Below, one piece after another: positions 36,001-39,000 of a stretch of 64,000 nucleotides of DNA. Location: the NCBI GenBank assembly GCA_030265395.1, contig JARFYF010000017.1, forward strand, positions 36,491,509-36,555,508, written 5' to 3'. Source of the DNA: Rhina ancylostomus. Its lineage: Eukaryota. Within the stretch, counting starts at the first letter, position 1; each line of letters opens with the position of its first letter. A program made the position numbers.

Positions 36001-39000
36001 ATAAAGTGAGGACATTTTATATGGACAGGGGAAGGTAGTACAGTTCTGGCACAGATGTCTAAATCATGCACTGGAGTACCTCCAAGGCAACATCCATATA
36101 ACAGGATAGGTGCCAAATTCAACAATATTAAACTGGGATATAGGTGAGCTGTTTCCGCAGATATATTAACTGGCAGTGATAATTTCTTGAGGCTATGAAT
36201 CAATTTTCATTTTTAACTCTTGGTTTGGAGCAATGGAGTCTATTCAGCATTGAGTGTTTAATACTTAATTCACATTTTTATCATAGGGTATGGTGGCCTT
36301 GATTTTCCTTTGATCATCACCATTGACTTCCTATGAAGAACAGTGGGACCTGGTCAGATGTTGACTCAGTTTGGGTGATGAGTGGCAAAGATACAGGATG
36401 TAAAGTGTTTGGAGTCTTCCCATGGTTGTCCAGTAAATTGACCTTGAGTAGCCCATCCAGAAGCTCTGTGTACAGAAGTGTCTTCTCTTATTCCTACAGG
36501 AGGACGAACCACCATTGTCCCAGGTCATGGCTGCCAAAGAGTCCAAAGCAATTAGGACCAACAATTCCAGGGACTGAACAACCGACAAAGTCCGTCACCT
36601 GAGGCAGGAGAACAAGTTACAGGAGCCCAATGATTTTCTGAAGCAAAAGCAGACTGAGCTATCCCACCTGAACCAGGTTTATGAGCAGAGGATCTGCTCC
36701 AAGGTGGAGGAGCTGAGGCAGCAGAGGAATCAACTCCAACTGGACTGTGGACAGCTGGTGATGTGACTGCACAAACTCAAAGATGGGCATGGCCAGGAGC
36801 TCCAACAGTGCAAACAGGCTAATCTGTGTCACAGGAAAGACATTAACAATGCCACCTTGGCAAGGCTGGAGCAAGAGAAGAAAGCATTCATGAAGGTTCA
36901 CCAAGAGGACTCGACTGATTTGCCTGCAGCACTGAGGGTGACCAAGGTAGATTATACATTAAAGATGAAATGATCCAGCAGGCTATCAGAACATGGATGT
37001 AAAATATAGGTTTAAAATGCTTGCCAACTTCTACAAGGCAATTGTTGTATCTGTCCTCCACTCCCCATAAAGTCTACGGGGTTGCAGTGACAAGGGATTG
37101 CAGTAAAGCAGTGCTCTCAGTTCCTGCAGCATTTCAATGACTTGGGAGGGTTCTGTCTCTATTTTTGCAATGTGGTAGGATTCAGTTTCCAATAAAATAT
37201 ACTATCATTCTGCATTGGAAATAACTCAGAGGTGCTGTGTGCCATCTGATCACAGTACCAAACTTGCGTCAGGATACTCTATCAAATCATTATTGCATGA
37301 ACTATGCTACTTACCATTTTTCTTGCTAAAAGAGTCTCATTGAATATAGTAGATTCATTTTATTTTGGTTTGCATTGCTTTATTTTCAATGCAAGTTTAG
37401 AAATACGAACACAACAAAAGTAACAGTGAACAGTAATGGAATGTTGTGTATTATATTGTAATTGCTTCCTGACACCACAATACACTTTTAAGTTTACTTT
37501 CAATGTTGTTTAACATGCATTTCACCACAACAAACACAAGCCACAGTTTAAGCAAATAAGATAATTTTCAGATAAGTACATTTAATGACCATTTTAGTCC
37601 TTATGCTCAATATTGAACTTTCAATCCAAAAGGAATTAAAATGACATTGAATATTTGAAATTAAAAATATAAAGGCCACAAACAGATATTGTACATTCAT
37701 ATTTTAGAACTTTTTGCCTGGATGTTAACTGCATCATTTTCAAAATTTTTTTAAAGTTTTCAGTGTTTAAATGGGGTCATTCTAAAGAAACAACTGGGAA
37801 GTGGCGGTGCAGAGTCAGTGAATTGGTATGTCACTCAACCTGATTCATTGCTGACCCTGAGCTGCAGGTACACTGTGCAGGCTACCACCATTCCCATTTT
37901 CTGAAATGCATTGTTGGCTGTTCATAATGAGTCCTACTTTCTGAATAACGGAAGGCTCAATGATAATAATGCTGTCAGTACTATCACTGTACTAAATTAA
38001 AACACAATTAGCCTCACTTAATGCTTGTCTCTATAAACCAAAAGCACCAATATGGAAATTTATTGCCCATTAATCGTTCATTTTTAACAGCAAAAACAAC
38101 ATTTTTGGGTCAATGGATATTCGGAAGCCTGAGTTAACCAAGAACCCCTTTAGAACCGATCACATCATTACATGTTGACTTCTGCAACTTGAAATAACAT
38201 ATTAACATATTAAACATCAGGACAGCTAGAAGAAATCAACAATAGACCTGTAAGGAATTGATGATCCCTTTGAATAGAACTGGGGTGTCCTTACTACTGA
38301 TTAATACATGCTCATCTGTACGTGTTTAAGACAAGGTGACAGCACTAGTGTCAAATTAGCATTGTGCATTGGCGTCATGATGTGTCTACTCTTCAATATT
38401 CTGGTGGATGTTCACAATGGGATGTTCTTCCCATTTGTGAGCATATGGCATTCAGCACAATGTGGTTGACAGTTAACTGTCTCCACAGTTTACGGCACTT
38501 TAGGGATGTTCAAATAACTGCCAGTCTTGCCAGCAACAACCACATTGCATGATAAAAGATATTTAAAAAAACCCTATTGTCATGGATCACCAATGGTCAA
38601 GAAGTTTGGGCTGAGAAACTGGGTTGATGATGTCCACGATTCAGTTTCAGCTGCACGATCTATTGGCTCATTCCAAACACAAGGAGTTACGTGACCGGAG
38701 GCTAAAGTTCTGCCAGGGGTGTGGCTGAGACCTGCCAACTCCTTCAACCAGCACTCCAGCCACGGAACCAGCTCTGTACCATGCTGCCTGGGACAGTGAA
38801 GGTTATAGTTTCCACCCCCCCTGTATTTGCCTCTGCATGTTTCCAGAGAGTTGCAGCAGACTCCAAGTTTGCAAGTACGGTCTTTTATTCAAGGAGAGAA
38901 GAATTAACTTCTTTCTCATGGGCAGAGAGCAGCAGCCACAGTAGGAATGTGGCTTTGTGGATGTGGATGTACAGGTGATGACTTATTGTATGTGAAGCCC

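What the first reader, a model, noticed from the sequence alone, without database searches (positions are those of the whole stretch)
36378..36946. Fossil of a type IV neuronal intermediate filament gene 18 kb upstream of ESRP2
Seen: an ATG-initiated Ser/Arg-rich head (KVFG...SSPSRSSVYRS) followed by collinear coil 1A/1B remnants (QGLNNR, DKVRHLRQENK, VYEQ, RKDINNATLARLE, KVHQED). These are broken by a TGA and several deletions, so the ORF track misses them. Known: type IV genes (INA, NEFL, NEFM) encode head and coil 1 in one exon, unlike type III genes. The closest match I recall is Xenopus XNIF/alpha-internexin. Inference: this is a lineage-specific loss of a neuronal IF paralogue (unitary pseudogene) that may be intact in other chondrichthyans.
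Basis: partly seen in the sequence, partly recalled or inferred. Interest (0 to 1): 0.7.

Follow-up and report, generated by a model that had tools for sequence, protein, structure and literature searches.

The report
Dead fragment of a neuronal filament gene
This is a real but ordinary relic: the decayed front half of an extra copy of a neuronal intermediate-filament gene in a ray genome, while the working gene most likely survives on another chromosome.

Summary
Window 36378-36946 (+) holds a collinear, broken remnant of an intermediate-filament (IF) gene running from the start codon to the end of coil 1B. tblastn with a skate protein gives E=1.3e-30. A family HMM gives E=2e-11 and 8e-8 and hits nothing else among 3390 six-frame fragments.

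[quoted passage not shown] All 5 of 5 significant hits in an exhaustive search are NIF proteins. Placing it outside NIF is rejected (AU p=0.003).

ESRP2 is confirmed on the minus strand, with its start codon at 18379, 18 kb away and divergent from the fossil. The ESRP2 exons show the window comes from a ray, not a shark.

The "unitary loss" reading is not supported. Intact 455-457 aa NIF-like proteins exist in all four batoid orders sampled. In Mobula and Narcine they lie on contigs of different length from ESRP2's. The fossil groups with the batoid clade (support 95/93 and 99/100).

The best reading is an old, truncated, non-functional extra copy. Whether it arose as a retrocopy or a DNA-level copy is unresolved. 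Interest is low.

The parts
36378..36509 (+). Head-domain remnant starting at the probable original ATG (MSGKDTGCKVFG...SSPSRSSVYRSVFSYSYRRTN), frame 0
   Evidence: tblastn: P0001 res 22-54 maps to 36426-36509; P0002 res 14-60 maps to 36402-36545, 45% identity. Family HMM positions 14-47, weak on its own (E=0.31) but collinear.
36515..36562 (+). Pre-coil segment LSQ...AIRTN, corresponding to DLSQCTAVNNEFKIIRTN of intact proteins; frame 2, reached by a frameshift near 36500-36515
   Evidence: Part of the tblastn alignment 36503-36949; sequence read.
36562..36585 (+). Start of coil 1A, QFQGLNNR (intact: EQLQGLNDRF); frame 1, flanked by two frameshifting deletions
   Evidence: ORF 36556-36633; collinear weak HMM match at positions 93-101.
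36584..36763 (+). Rest of coil 1A, linker L1 and first half of coil 1B (DKVRHLRQENK...LNQVYEQ...QLVM), frame 2
   Evidence: Family HMM E=2.2e-11, positions 107-168; alignment.
36764..36766 (+). In-frame TGA where intact chondrichthyan proteins have Cys
   Evidence: alignment column ...LASCLDKL... vs ...LVMXLHKL....
36767..36946 (+). Second half of coil 1B to its end (LHKLKD...RKDINNATLARLEQEKK..KVHQEDSTDLPAALRVTK). Similarity stops here, at about residue 235 of 456.
   Evidence: Family HMM E=8.2e-8, positions 172-247; PDB vimentin coil 1B fragments E=0.011-0.11; alignment.
18245..18379 (-). Context: ESRP2 exon 1 (Met at 18379), divergent from the fossil. Further ESRP2 exons lie at about 17909-18061, 12192-12308, 8664-8777, 7839-7937, 7702-7758, 6969-7079, 3045-3182 and 1383-1709.
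   Evidence: tblastn exon by exon with five ESRP2 proteins and one ESRP1 protein; exon 1383-1688 is 100% identical to Mobula ESRP2.

Best explanation
Window 36378-36946 is a non-functional, truncated and heavily decayed extra copy of the batoid NIF-like gene. [quoted passage not shown]

The copy keeps the start codon, head, coil 1A, L1 and coil 1B. It lacks L12, coil 2 and the tail. It sits in the sequence between ESRP2 and whatever lies upstream of it, on the opposite strand to ESRP2.

Shown: it cannot encode a filament protein. It has three frameshifts, a stop codon and about 30 missing codons, and it has no second half of the rod.

Inferred: the intact parent gene persists elsewhere in the same genome, on another chromosome. 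The copy arose on the batoid stem or early in the batoid radiation, of the order of 10^8 years ago, and has drifted neutrally since.

How the copy was made is unresolved. I lean towards a DNA-level partial duplication, or an in-place loss of the 3' part, rather than retroposition. The 5' end is complete and the 3' end is missing, which is the reverse of what retrocopies usually show.
For: Family:
- The only hit of the word-based search was a skate NIF-like protein (E=2.1e-20, 53% identity).
- Identity over 122 aligned columns is 57-61.5% to the four batoid NIF-like proteins, 35-54% to six shark proteins, 39-48% to bony-vertebrate NIF and 35-38.5% to INA.
- At columns that separate NIF from INA the fossil matches NIF 7 times, INA 0 times and neither 4 times.
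- An exhaustive phmmer search of 1.84 billion representatives gave 5 hits at E<=0.001. All 5 are NIF-family proteins by blastp, at 86-98% identity to named NIF proteins.
- The AU test rejects a position outside the NIF clade (p=0.0029).

A copy, not the sole gene:
- The fossil plus the 4 batoid proteins form a clade with support 95/93 (LG+C20 PMSF, 31 rows) and 99/100 (LG+G4, 19 rows).
- The fossil's terminal branch is 0.67-0.95 changes per site, against a median of 0.10-0.15 for the other rows.
- Intact proteins of 455-457 aa exist in Amblyraja, Pristis, Narcine and Mobula.
- NIF-like and ESRP2 lie on contigs of different length in Mobula and in Narcine.
- The window's ESRP2 exons are batoid.

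Truncation: nothing matching HMM positions 250-470 scored better than chance-level (best i-E about 6) among 3390 six-frame fragments, on either strand. No tblastn hit outside 36300-37000 was found with 120 proteins. There are no N runs between 30668 and 52040.

Decay: CpG observed/expected is 0.10 in 36001-37000.
Against: - The window's own genome could not be searched, so the presence of an intact parent there is inferred from relatives.
- AU tests do not reject the fossil lying outside the chondrichthyan NIF clade (p=0.134) or with the sharks (p=0.18).
- Strict batoid-versus-shark diagnostic columns are split: 2 batoid, 2 shark, 3 neither.
- The fossil is a long branch with odd amino-acid composition (flagged). 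Its attraction to the short-branched batoid proteins could partly reflect their slow evolution.
- Contig length is only a proxy for chromosome identity, and it is given per 90%-identity cluster.
- In Amia, NIF and ESRP2 share a contig length of 44,214,953. This leaves room for an old linkage.
Confidence: 0.65

Rival explanations
1. One reading: a unitary pseudogene. On this view the fossil is the in-place remnant of a distinct neuronal IF paralogue (or of the original NIF locus) that sat upstream of ESRP2 and was lost in this lineage. It might still be intact at that position in other cartilaginous fishes.
For: - The 5'-complete, 3'-missing shape fits in-place decay with a later deletion at least as well as it fits a copy.
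- AU tests do not exclude a position outside the chondrichthyan NIF clade (p=0.134).
- Amia NIF and ESRP2 share a contig length.
- No poly(A) tail or target-site duplication was found.
Against: - The ML trees nest the fossil with batoid NIF-like proteins.
- It carries chondrichthyan- and batoid-type residues (LNQVYEQ, ARLEQEKK, KVHQED, QELQQ.KQA).
- The best 120 relatives of the skate protein contain one NIF-like protein per cartilaginous-fish species (11 species) and no second paralogue.
- The exhaustive search found nothing closer to the fossil than those proteins.
- The intact gene is on a different contig from ESRP2 in Mobula and Narcine. The same holds in 10 of the 11 bony vertebrates with a contig length listed for both NIF and ESRP2 or ESRP2-like.
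Confidence: 0.18
2. A processed pseudogene. A reverse-transcribed NIF-like mRNA inserted upstream of ESRP2 and later lost its 3' half.
For: - It is uninterrupted from the start codon through coil 1B.
- It lies on a different chromosome from the presumed parent.
Against: - Lack of introns is uninformative. By recalled knowledge of NF-L, NF-M and alpha-internexin genes, type IV genes carry the head and coil 1 in exon 1. The only support I saw for this is a title in a reference list.
- There is no A-rich tail after 36946.
- No flanking direct repeats beyond chance-level 11-13-mers were found.
- The 3' end, which retrocopies normally keep, is the part that is missing.
Confidence: 0.14
3. Chance resemblance of a coiled-coil-like, charge-rich open frame, or a still-coding short gene.
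For: The 62-aa piece alone draws weak hits to unrelated coiled-coil families (Vps5, Nup54, ZapB; E=0.02-0.07).
Against: - E=1.3e-30, 2.1e-20 and 2.2e-11.
- Five collinear pieces in the correct order.
- Family-specific motifs are present.
- Three frameshifts and a stop codon rule out a coding gene.
Confidence: 0.02

Closest known systems
[quoted passage not shown]
   Same: Head motifs, the coil 1A start, L1 and coil 1B are collinear with these proteins. Identity is 57-61.5% over 122 columns. The fossil groups with them in ML trees.
   Different: It is broken by three frameshifts, one stop codon and many deletions. It ends at about residue 235 of 456, with no L12, coil 2 or tail. It is not at the locus of the intact gene in Mobula or Narcine.
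Alpha-internexin (INA) / gefiltin / xefiltin, type IV IF
   Same: Sister family with the same domain plan.
   Different: Identity is only 35-38.5%. At diagnostic columns the count is 0 for INA and 7 for NIF. The AU test rejects a position outside NIF (p=0.0029). That xefiltin is distinct from XNIF rests on a title seen in the reference list of PMC3922942.
Vimentin and other type III IFs
   Same: The coil 1B fragment aligns to solved vimentin coil 1B structures (E=0.011-0.11).
   Different: The match is far weaker (about 19 bits against 91 bits for NIF-like). No type III protein is among the 5 significant representatives. From recall, type III genes have introns inside the region that is uninterrupted here.
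Duplicated or processed pseudogene fragments in vertebrate genomes
   Same: An intergenic, disabled, CpG-depleted partial copy of a gene whose working copy lies elsewhere.
   Different: It is unusually old and still recognisable. It is truncated at the 3' end rather than the 5' end.

Membership tests
Intermediate filament protein (Pfam PF00038 Filament) | Match to the rod-domain profile at the curated threshold | tested here: inconclusive
   The read-through 36578-36970 (X at the TGA) scores E=1.4e-5 and 25.3 bits, below the cut-off of 40. An HMM built here from P0001-P0059 (59 of the 120 proteins on hand) gives E=2.2e-11 and 8.2e-8.
Intermediate filament protein | Coil 1A helix-initiation motif (LNDRFA.YI.KVR.LE.QN; motif recalled) | tested here: met
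   Remnants QGLNNR and DKVRHLRQENK are in the right order. A deletion of about 5 codons and frame changes lie between them.
Intermediate filament protein | Complete rod with coil 2 and the helix-termination motif (TYRKLLEGEE; motif recalled) | tested here: not met
   Nothing matching HMM positions 250-470 scored better than chance-level (best i-E about 6) among 3390 six-frame fragments. No tblastn hit outside 36300-37000 was found with 120 proteins. It is a fragment of a member, not a whole member.
Type IV, NIF/XNIF subfamily | Nearest relatives and tree position are within NIF rather than INA or other classes | tested here: met
   Trees. AU p=0.0029 against a position outside NIF. All 5 of 5 significant representatives are NIF proteins.
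Type IV gene structure | Head and coil 1 encoded without introns in exon 1 | tested here: met
   The fossil is uninterrupted from 36378 to 36946 apart from small deletions. The exon structure of the parent NIF gene could not be examined because no eukaryotic genome DNA is available here.
Unitary pseudogene | No intact copy in the same genome | not testable with these tools
   The window's genome is not searchable here. Indirect evidence: intact proteins exist in 4 of 4 batoid orders sampled.
Unitary pseudogene | An intact orthologue at the same (ESRP2-linked) position in relatives | tested here: not met
Among the 11 bony vertebrates with a contig length listed for both NIF and ESRP2 or ESRP2-like, only Amia shares a contig length. 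This is a proxy only; the intervals themselves were not seen.
Processed pseudogene (retrocopy) | Poly(A) tail, target-site duplications, retained 3' end | tested here: not met
   There is no A tract after 36946. Only chance-level 11-13-nt direct repeats were found. The 3' half is absent. At this age such marks could have eroded, so this lowers the retrocopy reading but does not exclude it.

The most novel reading that the evidence does not exclude
The fossil marks the original chromosomal home of the NIF gene beside ESRP2, or of a second, batoid-stem NIF paralogue that functioned for a time. On this view the working batoid gene on another chromosome is the relocated duplicate, which would be a case of gene relocation by duplication followed by loss of the source copy. 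The shared Amia contig for NIF and ESRP2 would then be a trace of the old linkage.
Probability: 0.12. Interest if true: 0.35.

Novelty: new member of a known kind. Interest (0 to 1): 0.15.

Why it matters
It matters little beyond annotation.

- It is a clean example of how long a dead gene fragment stays readable in the slowly evolving genomes of cartilaginous fishes.
- It could serve as a presence/absence marker for dating events on the batoid stem.
- It gives a small piece of neutral sequence with a known protein-coding ancestor, usable for calibrating substitution and deletion rates.
- It draws attention to the NIF/XNIF branch of type IV filaments. That branch is widespread in fishes, amphibians and some reptiles, has no mammal or bird among the best 120 hits seen here, and has hardly been studied outside Xenopus.

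Tried and rejected
- Rest of the gene. I looked for coil 2 and the tail with tblastn using 120 proteins and with a family HMM over 3390 six-frame fragments. Nothing was found.
- Transposon link. Self-blastn of 35-41 kb found only a 108-nt repeat pair (35351-35458 and 41763-41870) and a weaker 43-nt match (35348-35390 vs 26472-26514), and nothing at the fossil's ends. Pfam on 10 flanking ORFs gave no credible hit. Rfam on 30-45 kb gave no match.
- Retrocopy marks. No target-site duplication or poly(A) tail was found.
- AU test under the mixture model. It did not finish in two attempts. I replaced it with LG+G4 on 19 rows, a model that treekit's own notes say is more prone to long-branch effects.
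- The listing of cluster members. I called it to get contig lengths for more batoid ESRP2 and NIF members. ESRP2 linkage in Pristis and Amblyraja therefore stayed unchecked.
- Six-frame Pfam scan of 37-47 kb. Small exons of other genes between 18.4 and 64 kb, for example the gene that sits head-to-head with ESRP2 in other vertebrates, were therefore not searched for. 'Intergenic' is provisional.
- Literature. Three full-text searches found nothing on NIF/XNIF genes in cartilaginous fishes, on their synteny, or on this pseudogene. I saw only listings, plus reference-list passages of PMC3922942 and PMC2116226. PMC367678 is not held.
No eukaryotic genome DNA could be compared.
ESRP2 was handled exon by exon.
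- The N runs were left as they are.
- Nothing in the window looks human.
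Full report
**1. What is in the sequence**

- Frame 0 opens with ATG at 36378 and reads MSGKDTGCKVFGVFPWLSSKLTLSSPSRSSVYRSVFSYSYRRTN, ending at 36509.
- Frame 2 then carries LSQ...AIRTN (36515-36562).
- Frame 1 carries QFQGLNNR (36562-36585).
- Frame 2 resumes with DKVRHLRQENK...LNQVYEQ...QLVM (36584-36763).
- An in-frame TGA follows (36764-36766).
- The last piece is LHKLKD...RKDINNATLARLEQEKK-AFM-KVHQEDSTDLPAALRVTK (36767-36946).

The window has eleven N runs, but none lies between 30668 and 52040. 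Nothing near the fossil is hidden, and the runs were left as they are.

**2. Is it more than chance?**

Yes.

- The frame-2 stretch read through with X at the TGA hits Pfam Filament at E=1.4e-5. Its 25.3 bits are below the curated 40 bits.
- It also hits solved vimentin coil 1B fragments at E=0.011-0.11.
- tblastn of P0001 against the window aligns residues 22-54 to 36426-36509 and residues 61-235 to 36503-36949, with joint E=1.33e-30.
- An HMM built from 59 of the 120 relatives on hand (P0001-P0059, by list order; NIF with a few INA), searched with all filters off against 3390 six-frame fragments, finds only the fossil. The fragment 36578-36763 scores E=2.2e-11 at HMM positions 107-168. The fragment 36767-36970 scores E=8.2e-8 at positions 172-247. 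The head frame scores E=0.31 at positions 14-47. Two further chance-level pieces are collinear. Everything else in the window is at E>=3.7.

**3. Which family**

A search with P0001 returned 4553 proteins at E<=1e-30, of which the best 120 were listed. [quoted passage not shown] They come from rays, sharks, coelacanth, lungfish, amphibians (including Xenopus laevis and X. tropicalis), turtles, tuatara, geckos and ray-finned fishes. Alpha-internexin and gefiltin follow further down the list.

In an alignment of 18 of these proteins with the fossil, identity over 122 columns is:

| Comparison | Identity |
|---|---|
| Pristis | 61.5% |
| Mobula | 59.0% |
| Amblyraja | 59.0% |
| Narcine | 57.4% |
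| Six sharks | 35-54% |
| Bony-vertebrate NIF | 39-48% |
| INA | 35-38.5% |

At columns that separate NIF from INA, the fossil matches NIF 7 times, INA 0 times and neither 4 times.

The exhaustive phmmer search of 1.84 billion representatives gave 5 proteins at E<=0.001, the best at 46% identity. All five are NIF-family by blastp against the named set, at 86-98% identity to sturgeon, salmonid, percomorph and gecko NIF. The AU test rejects a tree that keeps the fossil out of the NIF clade (delta lnL 21.8, p=0.0029).

Their exclusion rests.

**4. Where the window comes from, and the ESRP2 context**

ESRP2 exons lie on the minus strand between about 1383 and 18379. One exon (1383-1688) was searched alone. 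All 120 listed hits were vertebrate proteins, nearly all of them ESRP2, with a few ESRP1 and one G-rich sequence factor 1. The exon is 100% identical to Mobula birostris ESRP2, 99% to Narcine, 96% to Stegostoma, 95% to Rhinoraja and 94% to Callorhinchus.

Mapped exon by exon, the window is about equally close to Mobula and Narcine. It is identical to neither, and it is further from skate, shark and chimaera. The window is therefore from a ray, apparently a non-skate batoid, not a shark.

ESRP2's Met codon is at 18379. The fossil's ATG is 17,999 nt away on the other strand, so the two are divergent.

**5. Unitary loss, or a dead extra copy?**

Four lines of evidence bear on this.

(a) All four batoid orders sampled have an intact NIF-like protein: Amblyraja 456 aa, Pristis 455, Narcine 457 and Mobula 456. 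They are 82-88% identical to one another.

(b) The listings give the length of the contig that carries each protein. In Mobula the NIF-like gene is on a contig of 170,995,155 bp and ESRP2 on one of 86,200,204 bp. In Narcine the figures are 376,162,909 and 108,750,091. Eleven bony vertebrates have a contig length listed for both NIF and ESRP2 or ESRP2-like. Ten differ: Anguilla, Conger, Arapaima, Albula, Gymnothorax, Sardina, Lampris, Genypterus, Sphaerodactylus and Eublepharis. One, Amia, shares a length of 44,214,953 bp.

(c) ML trees place the fossil with the four batoid proteins. Support is UFboot 95 / SH-aLRT 93 under LG+C20 PMSF with 31 rows and 99/100 under LG+G4 with 19 rows. The chondrichthyan clade including the fossil has 100/100 support. 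Within the batoid group the fossil's position is unresolved: sister to all four, next to Mobula, both weakly supported.

(d) No second NIF-like paralogue of cartilaginous fishes appears among the 120 best relatives. Nothing closer to the fossil exists among the representatives.

Evidence against this reading:

- AU tests under LG+G4 do not reject the fossil lying outside the chondrichthyan NIF clade (p=0.134) or with the sharks (p=0.18).
- Strict batoid-versus-shark diagnostic columns split 2/2/3.
- The fossil is a long branch (0.67-0.95) with deviant composition.
- Contig length is a proxy for chromosome identity.
- The window's own genome could not be searched.

On balance the fossil is best read as an extra copy of the batoid NIF-like gene that died, with the working gene elsewhere. 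I give this 0.65.

**6. How the copy arose**

The fossil runs from the probable original start codon to about residue 235 of 456, the end of coil 1B, and then stops. Nothing resembling L12, coil 2 or the tail is found anywhere in the window.

By recalled knowledge, type IV genes (NF-L, NF-M, alpha-internexin) have their few introns in coil 2 and the tail. I saw only the title of Lewis & Cowan 1986, 'Anomalous placement of introns...', in a reference list; the paper itself is not held. If that holds for NIF genes, the whole preserved stretch lies in exon 1. The lack of introns then says nothing about retroposition.

There is no A-rich tract after 36946 and no flanking direct repeat beyond chance-level 11-13-mers. 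The fossil's ends do not coincide with repeats found elsewhere in the window.

A complete 5' end with a missing 3' end is the opposite of the usual retrocopy shape. I therefore lean towards a partial DNA-level duplication, or a later deletion of the 3' part. This is inference.

**7. Age and state**

Relative to batoid proteins the fossil has the following lesions:

- three frame changes;
- one nonsense codon, where intact proteins have Cys;
- five in-frame gaps totalling 16 codons in the 36578-36946 frame-2 stretch (coil 1A remainder to the end of coil 1B);
- a loss of about 13 codons at the start of coil 1A;
- a shortened head.

CpG observed/expected in 36001-37000 is 0.10.

A terminal branch of 0.67-0.95 amino-acid changes per site corresponds, if decay was neutral, to roughly 0.3-0.4 nucleotide changes per site. 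This is my arithmetic, assuming about 2.3 non-synonymous sites per codon. At the low substitution rates reported for cartilaginous fishes (recalled), that means an age of the order of 10^8 years. This fits an origin on the batoid stem or early in the batoid radiation. It is a rough inference, not a measurement.

**8. Function**

None is expected. The fragment cannot make a filament protein. No RNA family matches 30-45 kb. The ten largest flanking ORFs have no credible Pfam match.

Whether small exons of another gene lie between 18.4 and 64 kb was not tested.

**9. Novelty and literature**

Three full-text searches found no paper on NIF/XNIF genes in cartilaginous fishes, on their synteny, or on this relic:

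- 'XNIF', 'neuronal intermediate filament', 'alpha-internexin';
- 'weight neuronal intermediate filament', 'zgc 65851', 'XNIF', 'intermediate filament family member';
- type IV gene structure terms.

I saw only listings and two reference-list passages.

The relic itself is probably undescribed, but it is an ordinary kind of object: a pseudogene fragment of a known family.

**10. Verdict**

- Observation: confirmed.
- Family call: confirmed and sharpened to NIF/XNIF-like type IV.
- Context (18 kb upstream of ESRP2): confirmed.
- 'Lineage-specific loss / unitary pseudogene': not supported.

Interest is 0.15.

Noticed in passing
P0010, P0011, P0014 (trees): The NIF-like proteins of carcharhiniform sharks (Scyliorhinus, Mustelus) are only 59-62% identical to the skate protein. 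Other sharks are at 68-73% and coelacanth at 62%. The carcharhiniform proteins sit on long branches (0.17 + 0.33), which suggests accelerated evolution or relaxed constraint in that order.
   Followed up: partly
listing: The best 120 relatives of the skate NIF-like protein include cartilaginous fishes, ray-finned fishes, coelacanth, lungfish, amphibians, turtles, tuatara and geckos, but no mammal or bird. This is consistent with loss of the NIF gene in those lineages. Only the top 120 of 4553 hits were seen.
   Followed up: no
P0047 and P0166: In Amia ocellicauda the NIF protein and ESRP2 are both on a contig of 44,214,953 bp. It is the only one of the 13 species with a contig length listed for both genes (2 batoids, 11 bony vertebrates) in which the lengths agree. 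The distance between the two genes is unknown.
   Followed up: no
window 35351-35458 and 41763-41870: A pair of roughly 108-nt repeats, 77% identical and in inverted orientation, brackets the fossil region at a distance. A weaker 43-nt match lies at 26472-26514. They are probably copies of a short interspersed element.
   Followed up: no
window 44570-44947 (+) and 56289-56813 (-): These ORFs contain ...WNALPAEVV...TLGTFKR... and ...MWNKLPEQMIEAGTITPFKRHLERY.... From recall they resemble the C-terminal end of LINE ORF2 relics common in shark and ray genomes. Pfam gave no hit for the first.
   Followed up: partly
P0177: A 1579-aa Polypterus model named 'S12A4 protein, partial' combines ESRP2 RRM domains with SLC12 transporter domains. 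It is probably a fused gene model of two neighbouring genes.
   Followed up: no
window 1383-18379 (-): The first nine or so coding exons of ESRP2 are in the window. The gene runs off the window's low end, and N runs at 1949-2048 and 11990-12055 lie within its introns.
   Followed up: partly
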